Below are positions 43,204-62,925 of a DNA stretch of 64,000 bases, piece by piece. Every line of letters begins with the position of its first letter. Position 1 is the stretch's first letter. The notes under the pieces are model-generated. The model worked only from the letters and a program-made list of their open reading frames with translations, made no database searches and was not told the origin of the DNA. Origin of the DNA: an uncultured Planctomycetales bacterium (GTDB taxonomy: Bacteria; Planctomycetota; Phycisphaerae; UBA1845; PWPN01); contig CAZZFA010000008.1 in the NCBI GenBank assembly GCA_964653435.1, positions 15,253 to 79,252 on the forward strand. The letters run 5' to 3'. A program made the position numbers and the translations under genes.

Positions 43204-43461
43204 ATGAAGACAACAGATAAACGGTTCTTGGTCTATAACCTGACCGATGCGGTACTGGCTTGCCCGGAACTGCTGACCTTGGCTGAGGCGCGGAGCTTCA
43301 TCAGGAGCTTCCCGGAGAGGTTCGCTCAGCAGGGATACTACCTGACAGCAACCGGCGAGAGGATCAGGCCGGAGCTCGTCGAGTTCGACATGGTGGACGT
43401 GGGGGCAGACCCACCCCTCGGCCTCAGATCGATGGCCCAAGCAACTCATTGGGGGTGGTGA
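43204..43461 (+). CDS. Hypothetical protein (85 aa)
   Basis: GGAGG RBS. Overlaps the next gene start. No recognised family. Confidence 0.5.
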   Translation: MKTTDKRFLVYNLTDAVLACPELLTLAEARSFIRSFPERFAQQGYYLTATGERIRPELVEFDMVDVGADPPLGLRSMAQATHWGW

Positions 43462-44303
43462 AGACGAATGGCTCCCAAACACGGCAAATCATCCGGCAGG
43501 CTCTCGATGACCTGGCGGCCGCCTTGGAGGCGGGCGAGAGCGATCGCCTGCGGATTTACCTGGCCAGCATGGCCAGGTTCCATCGGTACAGCCTCGGCAA
43601 CATCTTCCTGATTCACATGCAGTGCCCGCGGGCCTCGCGAATTGCGGGTTACGGGACCTGGCAAAGACTCGGTCGGCACGTGCGGCGAGGCGAAAAGGCG
43701 ATTCGCATCCTGGCGCCTGTCGTCTGGAAGGACCCCGACGACAAGGACGACAAGGCCCACCTTGTGGCGTTCAAGACGACCTGCGTGTTCGACATCTGTC
43801 AGACGGAGGGCAAACCGCTCCCCGCCTTCGCCACCGTCGCCGGCAACCCGGGTGGCCATCTGGCGCGCCTGAAAGACTTCGTTCGGGAAAGCCGCATCTC
43901 GCTGGAATACTCAGATCGGACCGGCGCCGCCGAGGGGATGTCCCTCGGCGGCAGGATCGTGATGAAGTCCGGCCTGAAGCCGGCGGAGGAGTTCGCCGTG
44001 CTCGCGCACGAAGCCGCTCATGAACTCCTGCACGCAAAGGCGGAGTCTCGACCGGAAGAGAAAGCCGTTCGCGAGACCGAGGCAGAGGCGGTAGCCTTCG
44101 TGGTCTGCCAGGCAGTCGGGCTGGACACCAATACGGCCGCCTCCGATTACATTCAGCTTTACCAGGGAGACAAGGACACGCTGTTGGCGTCGCTGGAACG
44201 GATCCAGCGAACCGCCGCCACGATCATTCACGGCGTTTTGGACGCTGATCGGCGCGCTGATGATGAGGCGACCGACGCGATCGTGCCTCTTCCCGGGGTG
44301 TGA
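43449..44303 (+). CDS. ardC: ArdC-like antirestriction protein (ssDNA-binding N-domain plus HExxH metalloprotease domain)
   Basis: YSLGNIFLIHMQCPRASRIAGYGTWQRLGRHVRRGEKAIRILAP is the ArdC-N/DUF1738 type. C-terminal LAHEAAHELLH. Confidence 0.8.
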   Translation: MGVVKTNGSQTRQIIRQALDDLAAALEAGESDRLRIYLASMARFHRYSLGNIFLIHMQCPRASRIAGYGTWQRLGRHVRRGEKAIRILAPVVWKDPDDKDDKAHLVAFKTTCVFDICQTEGKPLPAFATVAGNPGGHLARLKDFVRESRISLEYSDRTGAAEGMSLGGRIVMKSGLKPAEEFAVLAHEAAHELLHAKAESRPEEKAVRETEAEAVAFVVCQAVGLDTNTAASDYIQLYQGDKDTLLASLERIQRTAATIIHGVLDADRRADDEATDAIVPLPGV

Positions 44304-44679: not shown

Positions 44680-45927
44680 CTATCCGCGAATCTCGAAGTT
44701 CATCCGGACGGCCTGGTAGATCTTCTCGACCAATTCCTCGGAGAGGTCGAGGGTGATCTCCCGGGTCCGGCCGTAGCGGCCGTGGGAGACGACCCGCGTG
44801 CGGGCCAACCCGTACATGTCCAACTCGTCGAGGAGATCCCCGAAGGCACGGCCGGTCATCGTGCGCATGCCGGTCCGGTCGCAGAAAGACTTGTAGGCAT
44901 CATAAGCATCGCCGGTGCCGACGGGCGCGCCCTTGGCTCGGCTCGTCGCCTCGATGACGGCAGCCATGGCGGCCTGCAACTGCACCGGGGCCGAACGAAG
45001 CAATGTGAGGTAGCGGTCCCGGTCGAGTTCCAGGGCGGCATCATCCACGAGGGCCAGGGTGAGCTTGCTTCCGGCCTTCTCGGCCAGGTACGCGCTCTTG
45101 CCCAGCAGGGCGACCGCCTGGCGGGCATCGCCGTGGTCCTGGCTGGCCATGGCCGCGATCTTCTCGACGACGCCGGGGTCCACGCTGCCGGGAGTCAGCG
45201 CCTTCTCTACGCGGATGCGGAGGATGTGCTGGAGGTCCATGGCATCGTAGGGCTTGAAGATCAGTTCGTTGAGCTTGAGGAAGGACTTTGCCCGCGGGTC
45301 CATGTGATCGGGCCAGTTCAGCTTGTTCGAGACGAAAACAAGGATCAGTTTGACCTGGATGCGCTGAGGGAGCCGACGCACGAGGAAGGTCAGGAATGCG
45401 TCGCGGTCGCGCCGGACGTTGTCCACTTCATCGACGAACAGAATCAGATAGCCTCGGTACTCGCCCAAGGCGGCCTCGATTCGGAGCATGAGCTCCTCGA
45501 GCGAGATGCCCTTCTTGTAGCGCTTGCTTGCGTTGAAAAGACACGCCAGGTCGTTGAGAGCCCGGAAGCACGGCCGCGGCGTGGACAGGTCCAAGTGCTC
45601 ATGCCGCACAGGCACGTTCTTGGCGCGGGCCATCTCCGCGAGCAGGTTCAGGAAGAAACTCAGCGTGAGTGTCTTGCCGGTTCCGGTCTTGCCCCAGATC
45701 GCCAGATGGCATGGGTGATCACCGCGCAGCACGCCGGCAAAATGGCTGCTGAGCTCCTGAATTTCGGCATCGCGGACATTTGCATTGAAGATCTCTTCCA
45801 GGACCGCCAGCTGCTCCGACCGGATGAGTTGCTCGTCATCCAGGAAGCGCCGGTCCTTGATGATTGCGTTGCCGACCATGTGCTGGATGCGGCTGGCGAT
45901 CTTGGATCGCACGGTTGTTGGTTCCAT
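44680..45927 (-). CDS. Orc1/Cdc6-type AAA+ initiator-like ATPase with C-terminal winged helix
   Basis: GGAGGTG RBS before ATG 45927. Walker A LAIWGKTGTGKT, Walker B LILFVDEVDNV, PRAKS, KPYDAMDLQHIL, HGDARQAVALL. WH domain GDLLDELDMYGLARTRVVSHGRYGRTREITL. Confidence 0.88.
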   Translation of the reverse strand: MEPTTVRSKIASRIQHMVGNAIIKDRRFLDDEQLIRSEQLAVLEEIFNANVRDAEIQELSSHFAGVLRGDHPCHLAIWGKTGTGKTLTLSFFLNLLAEMARAKNVPVRHEHLDLSTPRPCFRALNDLACLFNASKRYKKGISLEELMLRIEAALGEYRGYLILFVDEVDNVRRDRDAFLTFLVRRLPQRIQVKLILVFVSNKLNWPDHMDPRAKSFLKLNELIFKPYDAMDLQHILRIRVEKALTPGSVDPGVVEKIAAMASQDHGDARQAVALLGKSAYLAEKAGSKLTLALVDDAALELDRDRYLTLLRSAPVQLQAAMAAVIEATSRAKGAPVGTGDAYDAYKSFCDRTGMRTMTGRAFGDLLDELDMYGLARTRVVSHGRYGRTREITLDLSEELVEKIYQAVRMNFEIRG

Positions 45928-46113
45928 TGGAAAACCACCTCCAGATGTGTCCAGTGGAAGCACATGTATAAAAAGCTTTCGGCCGCCAGACGGAGTGACG
46001 TTCGAGTGGAACATCGCCGCAGGCCGCGGATGCGTCCCTTTGTTTCTGGTGTTTTTCCAGAAGGTGCCGGGGCCTGCGAGGCCCGGGGTAAGGTTTATAA
46101 ACGTCGTACCTGT

Positions 46114-46168
46114 GTAGTAGTAGTTAGTAGTAGAAAAAGAGAAGAGAAAGAGAAGAGAAAGAGAAGAG
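46114..46168 (+). repeat. (GTA)n-like tract followed by three perfect tandem 11-mers AAAGAGAAGAG on a 37-nt all-purine run
   Basis: gtagtagtagttagtagtag at 46114-46133. 11-mers at 46136-46146, 46147-46157 and 46158-46168. Lies in the intergenic region upstream of the Orc1/Cdc6 gene. Confidence 0.9.
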
Positions 46169-46289
46169 GCGCTGCAGTGGAAAACTACTCACACTGACAG
46201 CACGGGATCGATTCCCGTGATCGGTCCAGGCGGCGGTTCACCGGACAGCGAGCGAACCGCCGCAAGCGCGGTTGGCTGGAGGAAACACA

Positions 46290-46556
46290 ATGTGCAGAAA
46301 CAAAGATGCCGCGACGGTGATACGAGCCCTCGACACGGCCCTTCTGGAACAGGCCAGACGGTGGCAAGCCTTCATTTCGAGATGCGGCGCTGCGAGTGAT
46401 ACCCCTGGGGGGGATTGGGCGGAGGAGTTTTGCCTGGTCGTCCACAACCGGCTGGCCAAGCTACGGACACAGCAGACGCCGGCACAGGTGTGCCGGGCGA
46501 GCCCTGGAAGGCGCCAAGAGGAGAAGGCGCCTGACGGCGAAACGGAGGATTCGTGA
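46290..46556 (+). CDS. Hypothetical protein (88 aa)
   Basis: GGAGGAAACACAATG start context. No recognised family. Confidence 0.5.
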   Translation: MCRNKDAATVIRALDTALLEQARRWQAFISRCGAASDTPGGDWAEEFCLVVHNRLAKLRTQQTPAQVCRASPGRRQEEKAPDGETEDS

Positions 46557-46707
46557 ATCCCGCAAAACTGGAAGCTCCTGAAACTCTGAGCCCCTTTCAC
46601 CCGCATACAGTAATGAGAGACATGAAAGGCGCCCGTACTCAACTCACCGGCGGATCGCTCACCAGCGGGCGACCCGCCGGGAGGGCGGTGGCCTGGAGGC
46701 AAAACAA

Positions 46708-47046
46708 ATGGAACACACACCCAATATCGACGCAGCGGCGATGGAGAAGCTGATGGCCGACAGAAGGCAGATGGCCGATGTGGTATTCGACCGGCTTCTG
46801 CTGTCGCGATATCACCGCAGCTTGGCTGACTTGGAGCTCCTTCCGGACCCGGAGGGGAGGCAGGAAGCGGATCATGTGGCCGAGTTCTGCTATGAAATCG
46901 AGGACCATCTGCGGGCTCTGCTACGCGAGCATCGCGGGGAAAGCCCGGAACAACTCCAGCGAAGGAAAGCGGCAATGGAAACGGGGGATGACGGAGTCTC
47001 ATTAGATCCAGCATCTGACCCGGCGCAAGAGCCGGGCCAACCGTAA
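46708..47046 (+). CDS. Hypothetical acidic protein (112 aa)
   Basis: GGAGG lies 8 nt before the ATG. No recognised family. Confidence 0.55.
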   Translation: MEHTPNIDAAAMEKLMADRRQMADVVFDRLLLSRYHRSLADLELLPDPEGRQEADHVAEFCYEIEDHLRALLREHRGESPEQLQRRKAAMETGDDGVSLDPASDPAQEPGQP

Positions 47047-47078
47047 ACTATTTATAGAGGGGCCGCCATTAAGGCCCC

Positions 47079-48167
47079 ATGCCCTTCGCAGATCCACTTT
47101 CGCTCTTTCCAATCGGCCAGTTCTTCGAGTCCCTGCTACCAGACTTCATTCTGGCCTTCACGTTCTTCACCGCGTTAGTCTACGCGGTGCTGGGGAGACG
47201 CTTTGATCACCAGCGCTCGGCCGTGGCCATGGCCGCGGCCGTCGGCCTGGCCCTCAGCCTGGGCCTCGTCTGGTGGGAAGCGCAAACCGGCCTGTCTGTC
47301 AGAAACCTCGGCCCGCTGGCAATCGGCTTTGCCGTCATTCTCCTGGGCATGATCATGTTTCAGGGGATCCGTCAGACCGGCGGGTCCTGGGCAGGCGCCG
47401 GCATCGCCATGGGCGCCAGCATCCTCATCGCCTGGATCCTCGGCGTGGACTGGCCTGTTGCACCGGCGGTCGTCCAGTCGCTCGCGATCGTGGGCCTGCT
47501 CGCCGGCATCATCGCGTTCTTTCTGCATCGGCATGTACCCTCGTCGGGCTATCACTGGGCCCCGGCCAACGTTCAGCCTGAACTGGCGGGCGTTCGACAC
47601 GACATGAGCGATCTTTACGAGGATCGCCGGATGGACCAGCGGATCGGGGGCGCCCTCGCACACCTCCGGGCCCGGACTGATTCGCTGTCCGTCCATCGTG
47701 AGGAGGCCCCGGACTTCATGGCTCAGCTCCGGCGGATCCTGCCGGCAGAGGGTTGGCTGACGGAACGGCTCGCCGCCCTGCGGGCGCGGGCCCACGTGAC
47801 CCGCAAGGCACACCTGGATCGGATCGATGAACTGCGCCACGTAATGGGCAAGCTTCCGCGGGACGTCCGAAAGAAAGCCGAGGACGAGCTGGCCGCCCGT
47901 TACGAAGAACTGAACATGGACAAACGGCTGGAGCGGCTGGACGCCGCCGTGGCCGAGAACGAGCGCCGCATCCGGGACCTGATACGGGAAGCCGAGGCCG
48001 CGGTCGTCCACAACGATTACCGAAAGCTTGCGGACCTGCTCGACGCCGCCCGCAAGCTGCAGGCGCACAACGGCAAGTTGTTCACGCTGATCGAGCGGGG
48101 GGAACACAGGTTGATCGAGGCGGCACAACGAGTCGCCAAGGATGTATCCGCGGTGAACGATGCGTGA
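47079..48167 (+). CDS. Hypothetical membrane protein with C-terminal coiled-coil region
   Basis: ~5 hydrophobic segments in residues 1-160, then a charged helical region (RKKAEDELAARYEELNMDKRLERLDAAVAENERRIRDLIREAEAA). Confidence 0.65.
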   Translation: MPFADPLSLFPIGQFFESLLPDFILAFTFFTALVYAVLGRRFDHQRSAVAMAAAVGLALSLGLVWWEAQTGLSVRNLGPLAIGFAVILLGMIMFQGIRQTGGSWAGAGIAMGASILIAWILGVDWPVAPAVVQSLAIVGLLAGIIAFFLHRHVPSSGYHWAPANVQPELAGVRHDMSDLYEDRRMDQRIGGALAHLRARTDSLSVHREEAPDFMAQLRRILPAEGWLTERLAALRARAHVTRKAHLDRIDELRHVMGKLPRDVRKKAEDELAARYEELNMDKRLERLDAAVAENERRIRDLIREAEAAVVHNDYRKLADLLDAARKLQAHNGKLFTLIERGEHRLIEAAQRVAKDVSAVNDA

Positions 48168-48619
48168 AGGTGGGCGCATCGCGGCTCGAAGACCGCCTGG
48201 CACCCTGGGAACCCCCGTACAAGTCCCGCGGGGAAGCGCAAGTAGGCCGGCTCCTTGACCGGTACGGGATACCCTTCTTCTACGAGAGCCCGTGGACCGT
48301 TCAAGACCAGGGGCGGCAGCGCACGTGGCATCCCGATTTCGCCTTGTTCTCCTATCGTGGGCTTGTGCTCGAGTACGCCGGCATGCCGGATCGTCCCGAT
48401 TACATGGAGGGCATTCGTAAGAAAGAGCGTGTGTACGCGCAAAACAGAATCCCGGCCGTGTTCGTGTATCCGCAGGACCTCCGCGGGCCGTGCTGGCCCG
48501 CACAGGTAATCGAGCGGATACGGGACACGTATCACGCAAGTTTCGGCCGGAAGAGTTACGGGGGTGCGGGGCACAGGTGGTACGCGTGCGGCGCACCGGC
48601 ACGCGCGAGGTACCGCTGA
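48164..48619 (+). CDS. Hypothetical protein, possible restriction-endonuclease-fold (PD-(D/E)xK-like) domain
   Basis: 4-nt overlap with the previous gene. The pattern E..VGRLLDRYGIPFFYE...HPDFALF...LVLEYAG resembles Vsr/DUF559-type cores. Unverified. Confidence 0.4.
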   Translation: MKVGASRLEDRLAPWEPPYKSRGEAQVGRLLDRYGIPFFYESPWTVQDQGRQRTWHPDFALFSYRGLVLEYAGMPDRPDYMEGIRKKERVYAQNRIPAVFVYPQDLRGPCWPAQVIERIRDTYHASFGRKSYGGAGHRWYACGAPARARYR

Positions 48620-48636: not shown

Positions 48637-50763
48637 TCACGCCCTGAGGTCGAGCCAGGTCAGTAGCTCGACGGGCGTGCGTGCGCTCGATCCCGCGGCC
48701 GCTATGGCCTTCTGGCAGGCGCCGACGGCCTCGGGACAGGTCGCCAGGAGGATGATCCTGTCGAAACCGGCGTTCTTGAGCTTCGTGATGTTTTCTTTGA
48801 TGTCAGATTTGCCGGTCTCGATTTCGAGGGCGACTCGCGCTCCCGGCCGCTCGGCCAGGAGATCAACAATGCCGTCGCCGGGTACGGGGTACTCGTGGGT
48901 GACCTCGTAGCCTTCGGACTCCAGATACTCGGCTGCCCGCTGAGCCCAGAACTGGTGCTGCAGGCTGGCGCGGGGGACAGTGCCGGGGTCAATGCCCATC
49001 TCGTCACACAGGGACCGGCCGTACTCCGTCAACTGGTAGAGCACGACCTGGCCGGAGCGCGTGGCGATGGTGGTGGCCTCGATGAAGCCGCCGGCGGCGA
49101 GCTGCTGCCGGACGGCGTTGCCTTTTCGTCGCGACAGATTCAGCCGCTGATATCGTGAGACGGTGGTGGACAGCGGCCTGGCCGCCACGTCGGCCAGGAA
49201 CCGGATCTCTTCCCGAGACATCTCGGGAAGAGTCTTGGGCGGTTGGCTATTTGGATCATCAGATGAATCATCTACTGGATATGGTCCGGATGAAGTCATC
49301 TGTGATTCAATGGGGGATGGTGGGTGGGGATTATTCTCTTGATATTCATCCGGGGCCGGAACGGGAGTGATCGGTGCCCATAAGGCCAGCGCGGGGCTAT
49401 TCGGTCCGGAATCACCGGAACAGGTCCCCATCCGGTCCCGAACCTGGTCATCCGAGACCGAGCCCTCTTGGATCGGAAACAACGGGACTCGGACCAGGAA
49501 GGGTTCGGGGTGTTCGTCCGCCAGGCGCACGATCGCGGTACCGATGGGCAACGTGCTGAGGGCCTCTTTCTGTTCCTCAGTCAGGTTCATGGCCCCGGCA
49601 ATGGTCTGGATGTCGCCGCGCAGCTTCTGGCTCAAGGCCAGGGTGGCATACGAGTTGGCAAAGGCGACCTTGCTCAAGAGGGATGCGGACTGATCGACAA
49701 AGACGTAACCCATGCCGTACTGGCGGATCATTCGGATTGAATTCTCCAGCACGGATTCCTTGGCTTCGGCGGCCTTCTGCAGCAGAAGGTTGTGCGCCTC
49801 CTCCAGAACGATCAGGTTGGTCAGTTTGGTTTGGGGCCCCTGGGCCAGGCGATAGCGGTACAGGTATAGCGTGAGGGCCTCCGAGAACATGGTTCGGTCG
49901 GAGTTGCTGGACAGGCCGTCCATCTCCAGGACCACGTTGTGGTTCAGCAGATCGCGGACGTGGCTGTTGTTCTGCGTGTTGACCACGGAACCGAACTCGC
50001 CATAGGTCATGGCAAGCAGGATCCTCTCGGCCGAAGCCTGCCACATGGCGGCTCGGCCTCGAAGCTTGTTGGATTGGAGCCAGATCAGAAGATCATGAAC
50101 TGTGGGCCATCGGGTCGGGTGTCCATCGAAGACGCCGGCGTCGCGGAACAGCTTGTCCAGCCCGGCGACCAGAAGGCTGATGACGCCCTCGCCGCCGAGG
50201 TAAGCGGCGGCGATGACGTCAACGATCAGCTTGATCCAGACGTTCGGCTCGCAGCCTGGCGGCGGGATCAGGGGGTTGAATCGGAAGGGAGAAACGTCCC
50301 GCCCGATGGTGTACACGTGAAGATCGGATTGGACGGCCATGAGGTCGCGGTACCCTCGCTTCCAGTCGAGGGCCAGCACGTTGATGCCGCGGGCCATGAT
50401 CCCCTTCATAAGAACGAAGGTCAGGTTGGTCTTCCCGGAGCCGCTTCGGCCGGCCACGAGGATGTGTTCTTTCAGCCTGGCGCTTTTGAGGAAGAAGGGG
50501 TAGAGCTCACGCTGGCCGTAAGAGACGTTGCCGACCTGAATGTCGCCGGCCAAGGCAAAGGTTCGCTCTGGCGGCGGGAACGGCGATCGGTCGGGCATGT
50601 AGTTCTGACCGAGATGGCGTGCGGCCAGCAGCTCGAGCATCTGCTCGATGTCGGCCTTGCCAGCTGGATCCGACTCGGACAGGTACACCGCCCAGAGTCG
50701 ATCGACTTTGGGGCCCAGGACAGGTTTGAGCTTACGACATAGTTCCTGAACACGAAGCATCAT
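48637..50763 (-). CDS. HerA/FtsK-superfamily (DUF87-like) ATPase fused to wHTH and C-terminal PD-(D/E)xK nuclease-like domain
   Basis: Walker A ILVAGRSGSGKTN and Walker B NLIVLEEAHNLL. Pro/Ser-rich linker. wHTH-like RRKGNAVRQQLAAGGFIEA...VVLYQLTEYG. Terminal GYEVTHEYPVPGDGIVDLLAERPGARVALEIETGKSD. Confidence 0.75.
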   Translation of the reverse strand: MMLRVQELCRKLKPVLGPKVDRLWAVYLSESDPAGKADIEQMLELLAARHLGQNYMPDRSPFPPPERTFALAGDIQVGNVSYGQRELYPFFLKSARLKEHILVAGRSGSGKTNLTFVLMKGIMARGINVLALDWKRGYRDLMAVQSDLHVYTIGRDVSPFRFNPLIPPPGCEPNVWIKLIVDVIAAAYLGGEGVISLLVAGLDKLFRDAGVFDGHPTRWPTVHDLLIWLQSNKLRGRAAMWQASAERILLAMTYGEFGSVVNTQNNSHVRDLLNHNVVLEMDGLSSNSDRTMFSEALTLYLYRYRLAQGPQTKLTNLIVLEEAHNLLLQKAAEAKESVLENSIRMIRQYGMGYVFVDQSASLLSKVAFANSYATLALSQKLRGDIQTIAGAMNLTEEQKEALSTLPIGTAIVRLADEHPEPFLVRVPLFPIQEGSVSDDQVRDRMGTCSGDSGPNSPALALWAPITPVPAPDEYQENNPHPPSPIESQMTSSGPYPVDDSSDDPNSQPPKTLPEMSREEIRFLADVAARPLSTTVSRYQRLNLSRRKGNAVRQQLAAGGFIEATTIATRSGQVVLYQLTEYGRSLCDEMGIDPGTVPRASLQHQFWAQRAAEYLESEGYEVTHEYPVPGDGIVDLLAERPGARVALEIETGKSDIKENITKLKNAGFDRIILLATCPEAVGACQKAIAAAGSSARTPVELLTWLDLRA

Positions 50764-51359
50764 GGTTGGTCACCTCCTTCATCCCCGAGGATCTGCAGCT
50801 TTCGAAAAGCAGACAGATACTGCTGAGCGGATTCAGGCAGGCGTTCACGGATTCGGGACACGTCGCGCCAGAAGGTCACTCGCTCCGCGCGCTGTTCGGC
50901 GCGCAGGTCGTGCATGCGTTTTTCGTAGACGGCATAGGCTTCCTCTGTCGCGGGGTTAGCGTTTCGGGCGAGTTCGTTGAAGGCGTAGCACTGGGACCAC
51001 TGGATATCGAGCATGTTCTTCTTGTAGATCTCCTCTCGCTGTTTGATCTGGCCAAGGACATCGTCAAGGGCCATCCAACTGGTGTGCTTGCGATCGAACA
51101 AAACCGCGGTCTCCGGCTCATGGTCCGGGACCGCGAAGTAGCCCTCTTGAACGAGATCTTCGACGGTCTGCGGACCGTCATCGATTCCAGCGACGTCTTC
51201 GTCGGCAGGAGAAGCGGGCTTGGCGGTCCAATAGGGTCGGACACCGTACCGCGGCAACGACGGCGTACGGCCATACTGATGATGCCTGCCGTACAGGTAC
51301 TGGTAGGCAATGGAGCCGTACGGAGTACCTGCGGCGGGACTTGTTGTTGATGGATTCAT
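50760..51359 (-). CDS. Hypothetical protein (199 aa), translationally coupled to the HerA-like gene
   Basis: GAGGTG RBS before ATG 51359. ATGA overlap with the downstream ATPase start. No recognised family. Confidence 0.6.
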   Translation of the reverse strand: MNPSTTSPAAGTPYGSIAYQYLYGRHHQYGRTPSLPRYGVRPYWTAKPASPADEDVAGIDDGPQTVEDLVQEGYFAVPDHEPETAVLFDRKHTSWMALDDVLGQIKQREEIYKKNMLDIQWSQCYAFNELARNANPATEEAYAVYEKRMHDLRAEQRAERVTFWRDVSRIRERLPESAQQYLSAFRKLQILGDEGGDQP

Positions 51360-51404
51360 GGGATCACCTCGGATGTGACTATTGCGCAGTGGTAATACGT
51401 TCGA

Positions 51405-51507
51405 GTTTATATGTGTTTCGGTCTGGCCGATGCGGCCGGGCGGCCTGCCGCCGGTTGGGTAGGCCGCCGCGGGGGTGTCACGAGGCCGTGGTGGCAAAGG
51501 TTTATAT
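51405..51507. promoter_or_regulatory. Divergent control region: two GTTTATAT boxes flanking an 8-bp-stem inverted repeat
   Basis: GTTTATAT at 51405-51412 and 51500-51507. ggcggcct (51439-51446) pairs with aggccgcc (51461-51468). Lies between the divergent starts at 51359 (-) and 51545 (+). Confidence 0.45.
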
Positions 51508-51544
51508 TCTCAGGCCTCTTCCGGGTACCGCGAGGTGATCATCC

Positions 51545-51712
51545 ATGGGAAGACCATTCAAGTGCCCGTACTGCGGATCCAACGAGACCGTCAGCAAGGG
51601 CGTGCGCCGCAACAAGACCGTCGGCGATCGCAAGGTGCGTCGGTGCAAGAAATGCCATCGCAAGTTCACGCCAAAGAACCAGCTATCGGTGAAGGCGGAG
51701 GACGAGGATTAG
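51545..51712 (+). CDS. 55-aa zinc-ribbon protein, below the track cut-off
   Basis: GAGGTG RBS. Product MGRPFKCPYCGSNETVSKGVRRNKTVGDRKVRRCKKCHRKFTPKNQLSVKAEDED, i.e. CxxC...CxxC with a basic loop. Confidence 0.6.
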   Translation: MGRPFKCPYCGSNETVSKGVRRNKTVGDRKVRRCKKCHRKFTPKNQLSVKAEDED

Positions 51713-51824: not shown

Positions 51825-52478
51825 ATGCTCTCGGCCCACGGCTGCCCAAAGTGCGGCGGCTCGCTGAAGATGATCGGCGAGAGCAGGTGTGCTTGCCGCG
51901 AGTGTTTGTACGAGTTCGACCCGACCGTCCACTTTCAGCGGTGTCCGGCCTGCGAAGGCCGGCTGCGGCTGCGGATCTGCCGGTACGTCTGCCAGAAGTG
52001 CGGGGCAGACGTACCGTCCCGCTTCGTGTTCGACGGGGTCGTCTTCGATCACGAGTACTTCCGCCGGAAGATGGCGGAGTCGCGTGAGCGGCAGCGGGAA
52101 CAGCGTGCCGAGCGCCAACAGCAGGTGGCGGAGAACCGGTCAGCGTCGGCGGAACCTCCGCCGGTGGACCTGGCTTCCGTGCCCGGTCTGCTGCAGGCGT
52201 TGAACGGCCTGACCGCGATTCCCGATCTGGCGGCTTGGGCGCCCCTGATCCAGGGTTTCGACTTGCAGCGCTACGAGGCGCATTTGCAGGCCCATATCGG
52301 GGCGACCGAACGCCGGTTCGATGATCTGCCAGCCCTGGACGAAAACCCTCGCCTGGACCGCATCTGGCGGTTCATCGCGATCATCTTCATGGCCCATGCC
52401 GGCCGTATCCGGGTCCGGCAACAGGGGCCGACCATTCTGGTGGCGAAAGTACATGAGACTGACACAGAAGGACCGTGA
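51825..52478 (+). CDS. Multi-zinc-ribbon protein (217 aa)
   Basis: CPKCGG, CACREC, CPACEG and CQKCG pairs in the first 70 aa. The frame is open from 51693 with no canonical start before 51825, so the true start is uncertain. Confidence 0.6.
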   Translation: MLSAHGCPKCGGSLKMIGESRCACRECLYEFDPTVHFQRCPACEGRLRLRICRYVCQKCGADVPSRFVFDGVVFDHEYFRRKMAESRERQREQRAERQQQVAENRSASAEPPPVDLASVPGLLQALNGLTAIPDLAAWAPLIQGFDLQRYEAHLQAHIGATERRFDDLPALDENPRLDRIWRFIAIIFMAHAGRIRVRQQGPTILVAKVHETDTEGP

Positions 52479-53297: not shown

Positions 53298-53401
53298 TCC
53301 ACAATCATCAGTAAACCTTATGACAAGATGTGTCCGGTCGGTGATGGCACGTTCAGCGTTGTGGAACGTGCCATCACAGGCACGGACCGGAGGAAAAGAA
53401 C

Positions 53402-53806
53402 ATGACATGGAGACCCAATGCATATCTATTGGAAGGCCAACTCGATAACACGCAGCCCGGCAGGATTACCGGCTGGATGCGGTTTGCGGGCCTTCCGCAG
53501 AAGGTAACCCTTGAACTGGAGGGGGATTTCGACCCGGATATCCGCGGACGGAGAATCGCTTTTCGGAATGCCTACTCCGGCAGATCTGCCGACGCCGAAG
53601 AGTACATGGACGGCTTCCAGCCGCGACAAGTCGGCAAGGTCGGCCACATCACGCTGGGCGGACCACCGCAATCCTGGACCGATTTCCCGTACATCGAGTG
53701 GATTTCGACCGAGAATGACCGTGTGGTCATGTACCTGGAGCCACACCAAGTGGCCGTGATTGATGAGTCGATCGAGGTTGTAGCCGCGGAACCTGGGCTT
53801 GGGTAG
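53402..53806 (+). CDS. Hypothetical protein, family C copy 1 (single domain)
   Basis: MTWRPNAYLLEGQLDNTQPGRITGWMRFAGLPQKV... aligns with the N-terminal ~125 aa of the 56982..57653 product, roughly half identical by eye. Confidence 0.65.
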   Translation: MTWRPNAYLLEGQLDNTQPGRITGWMRFAGLPQKVTLELEGDFDPDIRGRRIAFRNAYSGRSADAEEYMDGFQPRQVGKVGHITLGGPPQSWTDFPYIEWISTENDRVVMYLEPHQVAVIDESIEVVAAEPGLG

Positions 53807-53852: not shown

Positions 53853-54169
53853 GTATTACCACTGGCCAATCCTCACAATGAGTGCACGTAATGTGCCCAC
53901 TGGCGAGCCGTATCGGCTCTGCCTGAGGACTCCTGAGCACGTGACAGCACGGACGCACCGCGTTCAGTCATCACGAAGCCGGTCCTCGACGAGAAACCGG
54001 GATTGGCCGAGAGCCAGCCCATGTTTGACGTAGTCTTCCCGCTCTTCTCGACAGACCGCCGTTTTGGGGCGGTTTGATGATCGTGTTCTGAAATCCGTAG
54101 ACCCCGAGCCCCGCTATTGGAGTGAGGCCCGGGGTCGTTGTGTCTCTGGATCGAAAGGAGGTTCTGCAT

Positions 54170-55052: not shown

Positions 55053-55209
55053 TCCCCTCAGCTCACTCACAGGTGTCTTGAGTCAGGCCCGCTGTCCGGA
55101 TTCACGGTGGTTCCGCGCGCTCGCGTGGGCCGTGGCGCCGGCATCTGAAGAGCGACCCCATGACCCGTGTGGCATGGTGTCGCACGCATCAACCATGTTG
55201 GAGGAAACC

Positions 55210-56829
55210 ATGAGAACGATTCAAGCAACGGTCAACCCCCGGCTTCTGACCAAAGCCAATCGCCTGTTTACCGGCACGCTGCAGGGCCGGATCATCGAGA
55301 TCCTGCAGAATGCCCGCCGGGCAGGCGCTACAAGAGTCGAGATCACGAACAGCAACGGCTGGATCACTGTCCGTGATAACGGCGAAGGTATCGACGACTT
55401 CCAGCGGCTGCTCGATCTGGGCGGTTCCGGCTGGGACGATTCCCTGGAGGCAAGCGAGGATCCCGCGGGTGTGGGCCTGTTCTGCCTGGCGCCGCGCGAG
55501 GTCACCATCCGGAGCCGCGGACAGATCGCGGTGATTCATAAGGACGGCTGGACCGGCGAAGCCGTCAGGATCATCACTGATCCTGAACCATGCGAGGGAA
55601 CGGTTCTGGCGTTCCAGGATGAGCCTTGGACATCGTCCGAGGTCGATCGGAACGCCGTCTTCACCGGCATGGACGTTACCGTGGACGGCACCGCCTGTCC
55701 TCGCGAGCCATTCGCTTCGGATCAGGCCACGGCGTACCCCGATCTGGGCTGCCGCATCGAAGTCCGCGAGTACACGGACCTGCATCCCTGGCACCGTTCC
55801 TGCCACCGTGGGCACTACGGCGACAACGTCCTGGTCAACTTCCACGGCCAGGTTGTACCGTTCCACCATTGTCCGTTGAGCGAGCACCACCTGCACTTCC
55901 TGATCGACATGACCGGCGAGCCTACGGGCATCCGGCTCATGCTGCCGGCACGAACGTGCCTGGTTCAGAATGAGTCGTACCAGGCGCTGCTGGTGGCCAT
56001 GGAACTGGAAGCGTTCCGCTACCTCCAGCACCGCGGTCACCATCGACTGGCCTACAAGGAATACCTTCGGGCCCGGCAACTGGGCATCATGCTGCCGGAG
56101 GCAACACCGACGTTCCGCGTCGGGCTCCTCAGCGGCGATACGCCCGAGCCGATCGAAGTGACCAAGCCCGACAACGTGCCGTTGTCCAGCTGTTATCGCA
56201 TGAACCTGGATCCTGCCCTTGGCGATGAGACCGACGAGGCCAACGTGCACCTGCTGGCGGCATTGGGCAAGTTTGCAGAGCCCTTTGTGCCCGTGGATGT
56301 CCGCAGTGAGTACGACGGCTATTCCTGGGCCAAGCTGCCAACGGTCGACAAGGTCGAGTTTGAGGCCGGTAAGGTTATGCGGGAGTCATGGCTCTGGTCG
56401 GGGAAGATCGTGTGCGTCAAGCGGCTTCAGATCACTGCGCACACCAGCGATGGTCGAGTCTTCAGTTCGCCGGTCTGCATGGGTATCCCGCCGGTGGGCA
56501 AGTCCGAGGAGAACCGGTACCGCGAGGATACCGTTTACGTAACGCCGGAAGCCCAGGAGAGCCTGGCGCCGGCGCACATCTGGTTCCATCTGGGTGGCTG
56601 GAGCGACGACGGGGATACCTACGACACCCAGGAACATGAGTTTACCGAGAACCTCGATCGCTTCTGGGCGCTCCTGGTCGGCCCCGACGAGCAGCTTCGG
56701 CGTGATCTCATGGCGGCCGCCGATGGCATCAAACCGAGGTGGAAGGCTGTAACACTGTCCGCGAACGGCACCGTTCGGATCCGGTTCAGGAGGGGCAAGG
56801 CCAAGGTCGTTCGACCGCCTGTCTGCTGA
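55210..56829 (+). CDS. GHKL-superfamily (HATPase_c-like) ATPase with large unknown C-terminal region
   Basis: GGAGG RBS before ATG 55210. N-box IIEILQNARRAGATRVEI, G1 VRDNGEGI, G2-like DPAGVGLF. ~400 aa of unrecognised sequence follow. Confidence 0.7.
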   Translation: MRTIQATVNPRLLTKANRLFTGTLQGRIIEILQNARRAGATRVEITNSNGWITVRDNGEGIDDFQRLLDLGGSGWDDSLEASEDPAGVGLFCLAPREVTIRSRGQIAVIHKDGWTGEAVRIITDPEPCEGTVLAFQDEPWTSSEVDRNAVFTGMDVTVDGTACPREPFASDQATAYPDLGCRIEVREYTDLHPWHRSCHRGHYGDNVLVNFHGQVVPFHHCPLSEHHLHFLIDMTGEPTGIRLMLPARTCLVQNESYQALLVAMELEAFRYLQHRGHHRLAYKEYLRARQLGIMLPEATPTFRVGLLSGDTPEPIEVTKPDNVPLSSCYRMNLDPALGDETDEANVHLLAALGKFAEPFVPVDVRSEYDGYSWAKLPTVDKVEFEAGKVMRESWLWSGKIVCVKRLQITAHTSDGRVFSSPVCMGIPPVGKSEENRYREDTVYVTPEAQESLAPAHIWFHLGGWSDDGDTYDTQEHEFTENLDRFWALLVGPDEQLRRDLMAAADGIKPRWKAVTLSANGTVRIRFRRGKAKVVRPPVC

Positions 56830-56981
56830 GTATTCCCATTTACCCAGTTCATGAGATTCACCGGCGTTCCAGTGGAGATTCTGCGCGTGTGCGCGGAGCT
56901 GGAGGCCGGAGTCAGTGGCCCACGGGCACGCCCTGGGCTTGAGGCGTGCCCGCAGAGGCACCTAATCGGAGGTATCGAACC

Positions 56982-57653
56982 ATGGCATGGAGACCAACAG
57001 AGCATCTGATCGAAGGCGAACTGGACAACACCAACCCCGGCAAGGTCACGGGCTGGATGCGGTTCGCCGGCATGACCGAGAAGGTCATCTTCGACCTTCA
57101 GGGCAACTTTCACCGCGACATCCGCGGCGCCAAGATCCACCTGACCGGCGAAGGTCAGGCGGACGACCCGGAAGCGGGCTCATACATGGCCAGCTTCTCA
57201 CCCCGGCAGACCGGCGAGGTCGGCGACATCACCGCTGGATTGCCGCCTGCTGACTATGTGGCCGGCTACTGCTATGTCGAGTGGTTCTCGGAGGAGAATG
57301 GCCGCGTCGTGATTGAACTCTCACAGGACCAGGTGAAGGTCATCGGCCGGCCGATCCCGGCGTGCGAGTCCGATCCGATCTCGCGCGAGGACCAAGCGCG
57401 GAAGATGGCCGGCTTCTTGGCGGGATTAAGCCAGGCCGCCGGCGTGGTTGCGATTGCACCGGCCCAGCGGCTGGTCTCCGATCCGGCGTTCAGCCACTGG
57501 GTTGTCGTGGACGGCAAGATCGCCGGCGAAGCCCATTCGGTCGAACCCGGCGGGAACGGTCAGAGCTTCGCGTTTGTCCGGCTGTTCAACATGCCGGAAG
57601 GCGCGGAGTACGGTTGCATCGAGACGGCGTACCTTCGCTGGAAGGGCGCCTGA
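56982..57653 (+). CDS. Hypothetical protein, family C copy 2 (family C domain plus ~100-aa extension)
   Basis: GGAGG RBS. MAWRPTEHLIEGELDNTNPGKVTGWMRFAGMTEKV... is paralogous to 53402..53806. Confidence 0.65.
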   Translation: MAWRPTEHLIEGELDNTNPGKVTGWMRFAGMTEKVIFDLQGNFHRDIRGAKIHLTGEGQADDPEAGSYMASFSPRQTGEVGDITAGLPPADYVAGYCYVEWFSEENGRVVIELSQDQVKVIGRPIPACESDPISREDQARKMAGFLAGLSQAAGVVAIAPAQRLVSDPAFSHWVVVDGKIAGEAHSVEPGGNGQSFAFVRLFNMPEGAEYGCIETAYLRWKGA

Positions 57654-60084: not shown

Positions 60085-60175
60085 ATTCGTTCTTCGTCGC
60101 AGGACAGGTCACGCTCGTCACAGCGATGCGGCGGGCGTGGCCTTTTTCTTTGCGCATCGCGGAAAGGATACGCAT

Positions 60176-62669: not shown

Positions 62670-62925
62670 GCCTGCGTGTCCTTCCTCTCCTCTTCTCACA
62701 TCTTTCTCCTGCGCCCAAGCCTTGGGCGCATTTTTCCCCCTGAGCCAGCGACAGCTCCGTTCGACGCGGGTCCCGCGGGACATCATGACACAAACACATG
62801 AGCGTAAGTGTGCGCTGGCGCGCCACTTATGGGCTGTCGCAGAATTCCTGCGGGAAACCACTTGCGCCCTGCCCCGCTGTGCGCTATGTTGGATATGAAG
62901 TCTGTGACTCGAAAGGAGGTTTCGC

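What the first reader, a model, noticed from the sequence alone, without database searches (positions are those of the whole stretch)
48637..51359. HerA/FtsK-like ATPase fused to a wHTH and a PD-(D/E)xK nuclease-like domain, coupled to an unknown 199-aa partner
The 708-aa protein has a HerA/DUF87-type P-loop core (GRSGSGKTN; LIVLEEAHNLL). A ~90-aa Pro/Ser/Asp-rich linker follows, then a wHTH-like segment. The C-terminus (GIVDLLAERPGARVALEIETGKSD) has the D...E-x-K spacing of restriction-endonuclease-fold nucleases (Hjc/DUF234-like).

HerA-type translocases usually work with a separate nuclease such as NurA. A covalent translocase-nuclease fusion with an ATGA-coupled unknown upstream gene is unusual. 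It could serve DNA transfer, partition/resolution or defence.
Basis: partly seen in the sequence, partly recalled or inferred. Interest (0 to 1): 0.65.

Follow-up and report, generated by a model that had tools for sequence, protein, structure and literature searches.

The report
Fused DNA pump and MobC-like relaxase
This gene encodes a HerA/VirB4-type DNA-pumping ATPase joined to a DNA-recognition and DNA-cutting module of the MOB_C plasmid-relaxase type; it is a conserved core gene of a large, undescribed family of mobile elements in Planctomycetota and other poorly studied phyla, and probably prepares and pumps the element's DNA for transfer.

Summary
ORF 48637-50763 (-) encodes 708 aa: a HerA/VirB4-clade P-loop ATPase, a disordered Pro/Ser/Asp linker, a winged helix, and a restriction-endonuclease-fold domain. 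A 199-aa gene overlaps its start by ATGA.

The C-terminal wHTH + nuclease module is homologous to MOB_C (Replic_Relax, PF13814) conjugative relaxases. hhalign against CloDF13-type MobC gives 97% probability, E 5e-11. It lacks the Tyr that is essential in TraX.

Reference MOB_C systems place a coupling-ATPase gene directly upstream of the relaxase gene. Here the two are fused in the same order.

The fusion is an old, broad family: 280 loci in species-representative genomes, down to 28% identity. The partner gene is almost always present. Common neighbours are a 5-TM protein, Orc1/Cdc6, tyrosine integrases, ArdC, SSB and RadC. No T4SS or capsid genes recur.

Best reading (confidence about 0.55): a combined relaxase and translocase of integrative mobile elements. 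Rivals are defence, element replication or maintenance, and virus packaging.

Novelty: new variant of a known kind.

The parts
48637..50763 (-). 708-aa ATPase-linker-wHTH-nuclease fusion protein (whole ORF including stop)
50611..50763 (-). N-terminal three-helix domain (aa 1-51), no known family
   Evidence: AF2 secondary structure; conserved across the family
49429..50547 (-). HerA/VirB4-clade P-loop ATPase core (aa ~73-445)
   Evidence: Pfam DUF87 + HerA_C; Foldseek: HerA 4d2i E 2e-15, DndH-C 7es4 TM 0.74, VirB4 4ag5 TM 0.72, TrwB 1e9s rank 44
50425..50451 (-). Walker A GRSGSGKTN (aa 105-113); G108, G110 and K111 invariant in 49/49
49783..49815 (-). Walker B LIVLEEAHNLL (aa 317-327); E322 invariant. 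R347 and Q358 further downstream are also invariant.
49231..49428 (-). Disordered, hypervariable Pro/Ser/Asp-rich linker (aa ~446-511)
   Evidence: pLDDT below 50 for residues 456-510; composition P15 S10 D7 of 73; variable in length and sequence
48982..49230 (-). Winged helix-turn-helix (aa 512-594); D525 and R537 invariant
   Evidence: AF2 pLDDT 90.9; MarR-type Foldseek hits with probability 1.0; hhalign wHTH-only vs MobC 78%
48640..48981 (-). MOB_C-relaxase-like PD-(D/E)xK-fold nuclease domain (aa 595-708), alpha-beta-beta-beta-alpha-beta-alpha-beta
   Evidence: hhalign nuclease-only vs MobC family 92.4%, E 5e-7
48805..48864 (-). Active-site stretch D634...E647-x-E649-T-G-K652-S653 (the D-E-E motif). 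H603 upstream and N658/K661 downstream are also conserved.
   Evidence: D-E-E defines MOB_C (PMC6736028)
50760..51359 (-). 199-aa partner: disordered Tyr/Pro-rich N-terminus and a conserved helical C-terminal ~130 aa; translationally coupled to the ATPase
   Evidence: present in 70/86 loci, 4-nt overlap in 46
47079..48167 (+). 362-aa protein with ~5 TM helices and a long C-terminal coiled coil, convergent to the ATPase; candidate membrane partner
   Evidence: hydropathy; present in 42/86 loci
48164..48619 (+). 151-aa gene, start overlapping the 362-aa gene's stop; PD-(D/E)xK-like; member of a family found convergent to the ATPase in 23+8 loci
51360..51544 (.). Divergent intergenic region holding the only two ATATAAAC octamers of the window (51405-51412, 51500-51507), flanking a GC-rich hairpin (51439-51468); candidate promoters or protein-binding site
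44680..46014 (-). Orc1/Cdc6-type initiator gene of the same island (context: element replication module)

Best explanation
The protein is a single-chain mobilisation enzyme of an integrative mobile element. It combines a MOB_C-type relaxase module (wHTH plus D-E-E nuclease) with a coupling-type or translocase-type ATPase of the FtsK-HerA superfamily.

Inferred mechanism:
1. The ATPase domains assemble into a ring, as HerA, VirB4 and TrwB do.
2. Each subunit carries a wHTH-nuclease module on a flexible ~60-aa tether.
3. The winged helix recognises a specific site on the element (an oriT-like site).
4. The two-metal D-E-E centre cuts there. Cutting is probably hydrolytic and without a covalent intermediate, because the Tyr essential in TraX is absent.
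5. The ring then engages the cut DNA and pumps it out of the cell. The route is either a channel supplied by a helper conjugative system, or the conserved 5-TM/coiled-coil neighbour.
6. The 199-aa translationally coupled partner acts as a stoichiometric accessory factor.

Shown here: the domain identities, their homology to MOB_C and to HerA/VirB4, conservation of the catalytic residues, and the mobile-element context. Inferred: ring assembly, site-specific nicking, pumping, the transfer route and the partner's role.
For: Relaxase module:
- tblastn of the 197-aa module against 72,556 plasmids hit 'MobC family replication-relaxation protein' of CloDF13-like plasmids in 348 of 349 records.
- hhalign of the module profile vs one MobC: 94.2%, E 1e-7. 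Vs a 4-member MobC profile: 97.2%, E 4.6e-11, 139 columns. Nuclease-only part: 92.4%.
- Negative controls against another PD-(D/E)xK-like family gave 0.5% or less.
- That MobC is a bona fide PF13814 member (E 1.7e-22).
- Motifs align residue for residue: LEH/LpH, iDllAe/pDalAe, EVETGKS/EVERtvKS.
- MOB_C relaxases are defined by an N-terminal wHTH, a restriction-endonuclease fold and a D-E-E motif (PMC12857230; PMC6736028; PMC3424549).
- D634 49/49, E647 48/49, E649 49/49, H603 49/49.

Gene-order logic:
- A T4CP gene sits directly upstream of the MOB_C relaxase gene in CloDF13-type plasmids (stop/start overlap), in pYptb32953 and in pTEF1.
- An unfused MobC-like relaxase + archaeal-TraG-like ATPase + membrane-anchor operon exists in phages 0305phi8-36 and SPO1 (PMC3357382).

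ATPase:
- The best named sequence match is CedD, a VirD4-like HerA/FtsK ATPase needed for archaeal DNA import (E 7.7e-21; PMC11823120).
- Fold matches to HerA, DndH-C, VirB4 and TrwB all have probability 1.0.
- Walker A, Walker B, R347 and Q358 are invariant.

Context:
- 280 loci in species-representative genomes, several copies per genome, some inside complete chromosomes.
- Neighbours include tyrosine integrases, Orc1/Cdc6, ArdC-N, SSB, RadC, a DUF932-like protein and stand-alone Replic_Relax.
Against: - No T4SS or mating-pore genes recur within 10 kb in 86 loci, and none is in the 64-kb window. The exit route is therefore unknown.
- The module does not reach Pfam PF13814 (no hit even at E up to 10). 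The NCBIfam MobC_subf hit is E 0.09.
- The Tyr equivalent to TraX Y181 (essential for pAD1 transfer) is absent: KSDIKEN here against K[ST]RRRY in MOB_C.
- The ATPase is soluble. It is not specifically related to the T4CP MobB and is structurally nearest to HerA and DndH, which are repair and defence translocases.
- This window's copy has no integrase or separate relaxase within 64 kb, and no element boundaries were found.
- No oriT was identified.
Confidence: 0.55

Rival explanations
1. Anti-phage or anti-plasmid defence effector: a HerA-type ATPase ring that activates or feeds DNA to a covalently attached nuclease. This would be a fused version of the DUF4297-HerA or Sir2-HerA supramolecular defence complexes, with the wHTH acting as a sensor.
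For: - The closest folds include Sir2-HerA, DUF4297-HerA, TdpAB and DndH-C defence ATPases.
- PADLOC gives weak hits to mad8 (E 2e-11), HerA models and DndH.
- The island also carries GHKL, MoxR and VWA genes, and NACHT genes in relatives. These are typical of conflict islands.
- The lack of the relaxase Tyr fits a purely degradative nuclease.
Against: - The nuclease module is specifically MOB_C-like (97%), not Cap4/DUF4297-like.
- The gene is among the best-conserved genes of the island, alongside Orc1/Cdc6 (74% vs 80% identity to L001).
- It travels with replication, integration and anti-restriction genes.
- It is present in several diverged copies per genome. That pattern suits an element backbone gene rather than cargo.
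Confidence: 0.13
2. Element replication or maintenance enzyme. In this reading it is a helicase-nuclease that works with the Orc1/Cdc6 initiator. It could nick the origin for rolling-circle-type or sigma-type replication of the excised element. Alternatively it could act like FtsK to resolve or segregate element copies.
For: - Orc1/Cdc6 lies within 10 kb in 32 of 86 loci, and in 18 of 37 loci with full flanks.
- The elements carry no recognisable replicative helicase.
- PF13814 was originally named for plasmid replication and relaxation (PMC3424549).
- Relaxases of other families double as replication initiators (PMC5357655).
- HerA is a DNA translocase/helicase.
Against: - About half of the fully flanked loci lack Orc1/Cdc6 nearby, and divergent members occur with other backbones (L008).
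- The closest characterised homologues of the nuclease module are transfer relaxases, and they are consistently paired with coupling ATPases.
- The FtsK_SpoIIIE Pfam model is below threshold (16.5 bits against a cut-off of 24).
Confidence: 0.17
3. Genome-packaging enzyme of an unrecognised virus or virus-like particle. It would be an all-in-one terminase analogue: DNA recognition, nuclease and an FtsK/HerA-type packaging motor.
For: - FtsK-HerA ATPases package DNA in several virus lineages (established knowledge).
- ATPase plus nuclease is the logic of terminases.
- Many island genes have no known function and could hide structural proteins.
- MobC-like relaxase and TraG-like ATPase operons do occur in phages (PMC3357382).
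Against: - Only 1 relative was found in 2.9 million IMG/VR viral contigs, against 280 in 185,579 species genomes.
- There is no capsid, portal or tail hit in PHROGs or Pfam for island genes.
- The PHROGs 'terminase' hit covers only the P-loop (aa 98-141).
Confidence: 0.05

Closest known systems
CloDF13-type MobB (T4CP) + MobC (MOB_C relaxase) mobilisation module
   Same: The order is the same: ATPase first, then wHTH + D-E-E restriction-endonuclease-fold relaxase. In CloDF13-type plasmids the two genes overlap stop/start. The module aligns to MobC at 97% hhalign probability with H, D, E-x-E and K-S matching. MobC leaves no covalent intermediate (PMC6736028), which fits the missing Tyr here.
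   Different: Here the two are one polypeptide joined by a disordered linker. The ATPase is HerA/VirB4-clade, soluble, and not MobB/VirD4-like. It has no TraG-D_C domain. The R-R-R-Y segment of MOB_C is replaced by D-I-K-E-N. The hosts are Planctomycetota and other phyla, and the carrier is an integrated element rather than a small ColE1-type plasmid.
pAD1/pTEF1 TraX relaxase (prototype MOB_C) with its upstream T4CP
   Same: N-terminal winged helix, catalytic D-E-E centre and a K-[ST] following the E-x-E strand. The T4CP gene lies just upstream (PMC12857230).
   Different: TraX Y181, essential for transfer, has no equivalent here. Direct hhalign of the module to TraX is not significant (0.8%); the link runs through proteobacterial MobC.
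'DNA translocation operon' of Bacillus phages 0305phi8-36 / SPO1 (MobC-like relaxase + Sulfolobus-pING-TraG-like ATPase + membrane anchors)
   Same: It is the same three-part logic: a MobC-like HTH-nuclease, an archaeal-type (HerA-like) coupling ATPase and membrane proteins, with no T4SS (PMC3357382). A 274-aa Bacillus phage JL protein is among the top two-domain fold matches to the module.
   Different: The genes are separate and in relaxase-then-ATPase order. They are non-essential phage cargo, and their function is also unproven.
CedD/TedD (archaeal VirD4-like HerA/FtsK ATPase for DNA import)
   Same: It is the best named sequence match to the ATPase core (NCBIfam NF053655, E 7.7e-21). Some CedD orthologues also lack a TM domain and are thought to dock on a polytopic membrane protein (PMC11823120).
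   Different: The score (74 bits) is far below the family cut-off (600). The match covers only aa 259-424. CedD has no wHTH-nuclease extension and is chromosomal and archaeal.
HerA-NurA and DUF4297-HerA / Sir2-HerA complexes
   Same: The ATPase fold matches (4d2i E 2e-15; 8zit, 8wld and others), and the translocase-plus-nuclease pairing is the same.
   Different: In those systems the nuclease or effector is a separate protein of a different family (NurA, Cap4-like DUF4297, Sir2). The HerA HAS-barrel is not evident here. All NCBIfam HerA equivalogs score far below cut-off.
Streptomyces TraB (FtsK-like conjugative dsDNA translocase with C-terminal wHTH)
   Same: It is a single ATPase with a C-terminal winged helix that reads a site on the element. 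It belongs to integrative elements that lack a T4SS (established knowledge of AICEs).
   Different: TraB has an N-terminal membrane domain and no nuclease. It belongs to the FtsK branch, and the FtsK_SpoIIIE model is below threshold here.

Membership tests
FtsK-HerA superfamily of P-loop ATPases (HerA/VirB4 branch) | Walker A and Walker B with a conserved acidic pair | tested here: met
   GRSGSGKTN and LEEAH are present. G108, G110, K111 and E322 are invariant in 49/49.
FtsK-HerA superfamily of P-loop ATPases (HerA/VirB4 branch) | Conserved Arg finger and polar sensor (Gln) after the core strands | tested here: inconclusive
   R347 and Q358 are invariant in 49/49. Their assignment as Arg finger and sensor is by position only and was not checked in a hexamer model.
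FtsK-HerA superfamily of P-loop ATPases (HerA/VirB4 branch) | Family profile above curated threshold, and matching fold | tested here: met
   Pfam DUF87 scores 34.5 bits (cut-off 23.2) and HerA_C 28.8 bits (cut-off 22). Foldseek matches to HerA, DndH-C and VirB4 have probability 1.0 and E 1e-15 to 1e-12.
FtsK-HerA superfamily of P-loop ATPases (HerA/VirB4 branch) | Hexameric ring with a DNA-sized central pore | not testable with these tools
   Only monomer prediction was available.
HerA proper (HerA-NurA repair helicase) | Equivalog-level sequence match, HAS-barrel N-domain, adjacent NurA gene | tested here: not met
   NCBIfam HerA models score 19-21 bits against cut-offs of 800. No NurA-like neighbour appears in 86 loci. 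The N-terminus is a three-helix bundle followed by a short beta-hairpin.
VirD4/TraG/TrwB type IV coupling proteins | N-terminal TM anchor, TrwB_AAD_bind/TraG-D_C domains, T4SS genes nearby | tested here: not met
   There is no TM segment. TrwB_AAD_bind scores 13.5 bits (cut-off 20.5) and P-loop_TraG 18 bits (cut-off 25.8). hhalign to CloDF13-type MobB aligns only the P-loop (3%). TrwB is fold-search rank 44. No T4SS cluster was found.
MOB_C relaxases (Replic_Relax, PF13814) | Winged HTH immediately N-terminal to a PD-(D/E)xK-fold catalytic domain | tested here: met
   The AF2 model (pLDDT 90.9) shows wHTH followed by alpha-beta-beta-beta-alpha-beta. MarR and YraN/restriction-endonuclease fold hits support this. 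The architecture is as described in PMC3424549 and PMC12857230.
MOB_C relaxases (Replic_Relax, PF13814) | D-E-E metal-binding motif (BamHI-like) instead of D-E-K | tested here: met
   D634, E647 and E649 are conserved in 49/49, 48/49 and 49/49. They align to the D...E-x-E of MobC and of the TraX homologue. The motif definition comes from PMC6736028.
MOB_C relaxases (Replic_Relax, PF13814) | Significant profile-profile similarity to bona fide members | tested here: met
   hhalign gives 97.2% and E 4.6e-11 for the module, and 92.4% for the nuclease part alone. Controls gave 0.5% or less.
MOB_C relaxases (Replic_Relax, PF13814) | Match to the curated family models above threshold | tested here: not met
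   PF13814 is not reported for any of 25 members at E up to 10. NCBIfam MobC_subf scores 12 bits against a cut-off of 200.
MOB_C relaxases (Replic_Relax, PF13814) | Conserved R-Y after the K-[ST] (TraX Y181, essential for transfer) | tested here: not met
   MobC and TraX read K[ST]xxRY. This family reads KSDIKEN, and there is no conserved Tyr in the nuclease domain.
MOB_C relaxases (Replic_Relax, PF13814) | Site- and strand-specific nicking at an oriT, and dependence of transfer on the protein | not testable with these tools
   This needs biochemistry and genetics. No oriT was identified.
MOB_C relaxases (Replic_Relax, PF13814) | Genetic coupling to a coupling-type ATPase | tested here: met
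   Here the coupling is a covalent fusion. Reference systems have the T4CP gene directly upstream.
DUF4297-HerA / Sir2-HerA defence systems | Match to system models and a separate effector gene (DUF4297 or Sir2) next to HerA | tested here: not met
   PADLOC HerA hits are partial (E 7e-10 to 1e-3, C-terminal half only). The neighbours are a 199-aa unknown protein and a membrane protein, not DUF4297 or Sir2.

The most novel reading that the evidence does not exclude
The fused relaxase-translocase, its 199-aa partner and the conserved 5-TM/coiled-coil protein together form a minimal DNA export (or import) machine that does not depend on a T4SS. It would let Orc1/Cdc6-replicating integrative elements move between diderm bacteria such as Planctomycetota. 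This would be a bacterial counterpart of the archaeal Ced/Ted or actinomycete TraB routes, and a new mode of conjugation-like transfer.
Probability: 0.15. Interest if true: 0.9.

Novelty: new variant of a known kind. Interest (0 to 1): 0.66.

Why it matters
Standard tools that find conjugative and mobilisable elements rely on curated relaxase and T4CP profiles. This family fails those profiles: PF13814, NCBIfam MobC and the T4CP models are all below threshold. Hundreds of elements in Planctomycetota, Verrucomicrobiota-related lineages, Acidobacteriota, Chloroflexota, Zixibacteria, Omnitrophota and others would therefore be scored as non-mobile.

If the reading is right, it has four consequences:
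- It provides a marker gene for a large hidden class of integrative mobile elements in phyla where horizontal transfer mechanisms are almost unknown.
- It is a natural Rosetta-stone fusion, giving independent support that MOB_C relaxases work in physical contact with their coupling ATPase.
- It offers a Tyr-less MOB_C variant that bears on the open question of how MOB_C and MOB_H relaxases transfer DNA without a covalent intermediate.
- It shows that a HerA/VirB4-branch ATPase, rather than a VirD4 type, can occupy the coupling-protein role in bacteria, as proposed for archaeal CedD.

Tried and rejected
- Hjc/DUF234/YraN assignment: these gave only weak generic PD-(D/E)xK hits. They are superseded by the specific MOB_C match.
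- Comparison with the stand-alone Replic_Relax proteins of related loci: weak. A single sequence gave 6%; a profile gave 38-57% over the wHTH and first helix only, and the core did not align. MobC itself matches those proteins only at 78%.
- CloDF13 RefSeq record NC_002119: mobB and mobC are not annotated and could not be recovered with my local profile. I used Klebsiella CloDF13-like plasmids instead.
- The TraX paper (PMC3746933) is not held. Its features were taken from papers that cite it.
- The nearest plasmid relatives of the ATPase core are ~1,050-aa DUF87 proteins on Streptomyces and Embleya linear plasmids. Their context was uninformative.
- Partner protein: no Pfam, NCBIfam, PHROGs, PADLOC or PDB match.
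- Element boundaries: no tRNA, no Rfam hit, no att-like terminal direct repeats, and no integrase in the window.
- oriT: only a suggestive AT-rich box pair and hairpin upstream of the operon.
- Literature searches found no description of this fusion.


Full report
**1. Observation**

Its codon-position GC (0.64/0.44/0.77) is that of a real gene in this 62% GC window. The upstream ORF 50760..51359 encodes 199 aa from its ATG. Homologues are also about 199 aa, which fixes the start. On the minus strand the junction reads GAAGGAGGTGACCAACCATGATGC. The partner's TGA overlaps the ATPase ATG, and a GGAGG lies just upstream. The window is bacterial and diderm: it carries RND/OEP/HlyD metal-efflux operons at 0-31 kb. 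The closest homologues come from Phycisphaerae/Planctomycetota.

**2. Domain anatomy**

- **ATPase sequence matches.** Pfam places aa 76-159 in DUF87 and aa 317-426 in HerA_C, both above gathering score. TraG, FtsK and TrwB models are below threshold. NCBIfam's best hit is CedD (E 7.7e-21, partial), followed by TraC/VirB4 and HerA models, all far below their cut-offs.
- **Full-length model.** An AlphaFold model built on a 49-sequence alignment has pLDDT 87.6, with only residues 456-510 disordered.
- **ATPase fold matches.** Foldseek against the PDB puts the ATPase with HerA (4d2i, E 2e-15), DndH C-domain (7es4, TM 0.74), VirB4 (4ag5, TM 0.72) and the defence HerAs. TrwB comes only at rank 44.
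- **ATPase catalytic residues.** Walker A (G108, G110, K111), Walker B E322, R347 and Q358 are invariant in 49 sequences that diverge to 29% identity.
- **Solubility.** There is no membrane segment.
- **C-terminal module.** The C-terminal 197 aa, modelled alone, give pLDDT 90.9. The model shows a winged helix followed by an alpha-beta-beta-beta-alpha-beta-alpha-beta unit, the restriction-endonuclease core.
- **Fold support for the module.** Fold searches return MarR-type winged helices (probability 1.0), YraN/UPF0102 (3fov, probability 0.99) and many viral proteins annotated as restriction endonuclease, Vsr or DUF2726.
- **Pfam on family members.** Scans of 25 family members hit Mrr_cat in 21, UPF0102 in 18, and also Hjc, AHJR-like and NucS_C. 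All of these hits are weak.

**3. The nuclease module is MOB_C-relaxase-like**

The first lead was a weak NCBIfam MobC_subf hit, together with a Replic_Relax gene in a related locus. The literature shows the following:
- PF13814 (Replic_Relax) is a PD-(D/E)xK family usually fused to an HTH (PMC3424549).
- PF13814 is the MOB_C relaxase superfamily (PMC5357655).
- The prototypes TraX (pAD1) and MobC (CloDF13) have an N-terminal winged helix and a restriction-enzyme-like active site, and no detectable covalent DNA intermediate (PMC12857230).
- The metal motif is D-E-E, BamHI-like, and TraX Y181 is essential (PMC6736028).

An unbiased tblastn of the module against all 72,556 plasmids returned one gene family in 348 of 349 records. 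That family was the 'MobC family replication-relaxation protein' of CloDF13-like plasmids (27.5% identity over 124 residues; each hit has E 0.9 and is individually non-significant). That MobC is a true PF13814 member (E 1.7e-22).

Profile-based results:

| Comparison | hhalign probability | E-value |
|---|---|---|
| Module profile vs one MobC | 94.2% | 1e-7 |
| Module profile vs 4-member MobC profile (139 columns) | 97.2% | 4.6e-11 |
| Nuclease part alone vs MobC profile | 92.4% | 5e-7 |
| wHTH alone vs MobC profile | 78% | 1.8e-5 |
| Controls vs another PD-(D/E)xK-like family of the same islands | 0.5% or less | - |
| MobC vs the Planctomycete stand-alone Replic_Relax proteins | 78% | 1.8e-5 |

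The motifs line up: sLEHryW with hLpHrla; iDllAe with pDalAe; AiEVETGKS with afEVERtvKS. K652-S653 aligns to the MOB_C K-[ST].

There is one clear difference. MOB_C continues K-[ST]-x-x-R-Y, and the pTEF1 TraX homologue has Y181 exactly there. This family reads K-S-D-I-K-E-N, with N658 invariant and K661 conserved in 46/49, and has no conserved Tyr in the domain. The family also does not reach the PF13814 or NCBIfam thresholds. I therefore file it as a MOB_C-related but distinct subfamily.

**4. The fusion mirrors a conserved gene pair**

- In CloDF13-type plasmids the T4CP gene mobB (654 aa) ends where mobC begins.
- In Yersinia pYptb32953 a T4CP gene directly precedes mobC.
- In pTEF1 the T4CP gene lies just upstream of the TraX-type gene.
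- Streptococcal IMEs have the compact order CP, MobC relaxase, integrase (PMC5357655).
- Bacillus phages 0305phi8-36 and SPO1 carry an unfused MobC-like relaxase next to an ATPase related to Sulfolobus plasmid TraG, plus membrane anchors, without a T4SS (PMC3357382).

The present protein has the same two functions in the same order in one chain. The ATPase half, however, is not MobB-like: hhalign aligns only the P-loop. It belongs to the HerA/VirB4/CedD side of the superfamily. CedD is a VirD4-like HerA/FtsK ATPase required for DNA import in Sulfolobales, and some of its orthologues also lack a TM anchor (PMC11823120).

**5. Distribution and context**

- The first protein search returned more than 100 full-length homologues at 68-87% identity.
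- An exhaustive profile search with the C-terminal module found 1,730 cluster representatives. All of the top 150 are collinear with the query. The full-length ones (640-800 aa) are only 28-43% identical, and the short ones are truncated gene calls. The fusion is therefore old.
- Among one-genome-per-species contigs there are 280 loci. Most are in Planctomycetota (Phycisphaerae, Pirellulales, Sedimentisphaerales). Others are in Victivallales, Hydrogenedentota, Elusimicrobia, Ignavibacteria, Aminicenantes, Zixibacteria, Omnitrophota, Calditrichota, Chloroflexota, Nitrospiraceae and Thermodesulfobacteriota.
- Some genomes have up to three copies, and some copies lie inside complete chromosomes.

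Census of 86 loci:

| Neighbour | Loci of 86 |
|---|---|
| ~200-aa partner, same strand, immediately upstream (4-nt overlap in 46) | 70 |
| 362-aa 5-TM/coiled-coil protein | 42 |
| Orc1/Cdc6 | 32 |
| 217-aa Zn-ribbon protein | 31 |
| 197-aa protein | 30 |
| Small convergent PD-(D/E)xK-like gene | 23 + 8 |
| GHKL-type ATPase | 17 |
| ArdC-N protein | 11 |
| Stand-alone Replic_Relax | 11 |
| Tyrosine recombinases | 11 + 3 |

Most loci that lack the partner are truncated contigs or contain broken genes. The tyrosine recombinases were identified from their catalytic signature. SSB, RadC and a DUF932-like protein appear in divergent loci. No VirB4-type second ATPase, other T4SS part or capsid-like cluster recurs. 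Only one relative exists among 2.9 million IMG/VR viral contigs. In this window the island spans at least 42.5-62 kb. Its copy has no integrase or separate relaxase within 64 kb, and I found no tRNA, Rfam element or att-like repeats.

**6. Mechanism**

Shown:
- The ATPase has an apparently intact catalytic centre: Walker A, Walker B, R347 and Q358 are invariant.
- It is tethered by a flexible linker to a sequence-reading winged helix and a conserved two-metal D-E-E nuclease homologous to MOB_C relaxases.
- It is encoded in a two-gene, translationally coupled operon.
- It sits in the backbone of integrative, replicating elements rich in genes typical of conjugative elements.

Inferred:
- The ATPase forms a ring.
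- The wHTH docks on a specific element site.
- The nuclease nicks or cuts there without a covalent adduct. The Tyr is absent here, and none was seen for MobC either.
- The ring threads and pumps the DNA. The route is either the mating channel of a co-resident conjugative system (the CloDF13 and IME model) or the conserved 5-TM/coiled-coil protein.
- The 199-aa partner is an accessory subunit.

I put this at about 0.55.

Rivals:
- **Replication or maintenance enzyme working with Orc1/Cdc6 (0.17).** Orc1 is missing from about half of the fully flanked loci.
- **Defence effector of the HerA-nuclease type (0.13).** The fold neighbours and weak PADLOC hits support it. The specific MOB_C homology and the backbone-like conservation argue against it.
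- **Virus packaging enzyme (0.05).** The family is nearly absent from viral contigs, and there are no structural-gene hits.

**7. Known versus new**

Each domain belongs to a known superfamily, and the pairing of a coupling ATPase with a MOB_C relaxase is known. The following are new:
- the covalent fusion;
- the use of a soluble HerA/VirB4-branch ATPase in that role in bacteria;
- the Tyr-less MOB_C variant;
- the partner protein, which has no detectable relatives outside the family;
- the association with Orc1/Cdc6-bearing integrative elements in phyla where mobilisation systems are essentially uncharted.

Four literature searches found no description of it. I rate it a new variant of a known kind, interest about 0.66. 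The most novel reading still open is a T4SS-independent transfer machine built from this protein, its partner and the membrane protein (probability about 0.15).

Noticed in passing
window 44680-46014 (-), and 46015-47078: An Orc1/Cdc6-type initiator gene (TIGR02928, 239 bits) sits in a bacterial island and recurs in 32 of 86 related loci. It is preceded by about 1 kb of non-coding DNA with a purine tract (AGAAGAGAAAG x3 at 46129-46168). This may be the element's origin.
   Followed up: partly
window 48164-48619 (+): A 151-aa gene whose start overlaps the stop of the 362-aa membrane-protein gene. It gives PADLOC hits to PD-DEXK-type models. It belongs to a family found convergent to the ATPase in 23+8 loci, so the module carries a second nuclease-like protein.
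   Followed up: partly
window 51360-51544: The octamer ATATAAAC (minus-strand sense) occurs only twice in the 64 kb. Both copies (51405-51412, 51500-51507) are in the divergent intergenic region upstream of the partner gene, flanking a GC-rich hairpin (51439-51468). A [AT]TATAAA[CT] box lies upstream of the partner gene in 20 of 64 loci, against about 0.02 expected per 260 nt. It could be a promoter or a binding/oriT-like site.
   Followed up: partly
window 51545-51712 (+): A conserved 55-aa CPxC...CxxC zinc-ribbon gene transcribed divergently from the partner-ATPase operon. It is followed by a 217-aa Zn-ribbon protein (51825-52478) that recurs in 31 loci.
   Followed up: no
window ~55200-56829, 58996-60084, 60137-62077 (+): A GHKL-type ATPase (~542 aa), a MoxR-like AAA_5 ATPase and a CobT/VWA protein recur with the element (17, 7 and 6 loci). 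Their function in the island is unknown.
   Followed up: no
window 43449-44303 (+): An ArdC-N (ssDNA-binding anti-restriction) domain fused to an HExxH metalloprotease-like region. It is present in 11 related loci.
   Followed up: no
window 53401-53547 and 56981-57127; 54142-54169 and 62900-62927: A 147-nt repeat (71% identical) marks paralogous N-termini of a 134-aa and a 235-aa gene. A 28-nt repeat containing AAGGAGG precedes two gene starts 8.8 kb apart.
   Followed up: no
window 184-31224: Two RND/OEP/HlyD efflux sets with heavy-metal-binding (HMBD) domains, a P-type ATPase with an HMA domain and a TAT-signal multicopper oxidase together form a large metal-resistance region next to the island. 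The 1,391-aa AcrB-like protein (27049-31224) is unusually long, and its ACR_tran match is split into three stretches.
   Followed up: no
L061 (JAQTNH010000001.1) and L099 (IMGVR_UViG_3300036781_000821): One 36%-identical family member lies on a 956-kb contig labelled Candidatus Nanoarchaeia. That size is implausible for that group and suggests mis-binning. The single viral-contig relative (29% identity) sits near the end of a 92-kb UViG.
   Followed up: no
L092/L093, L096, L100 (reference plasmids): In all three MOB_C reference systems inspected, the T4CP gene lies directly upstream of the relaxase gene. pTEF1 is typed as carrying two MOB_C relaxases.
   Followed up: yes
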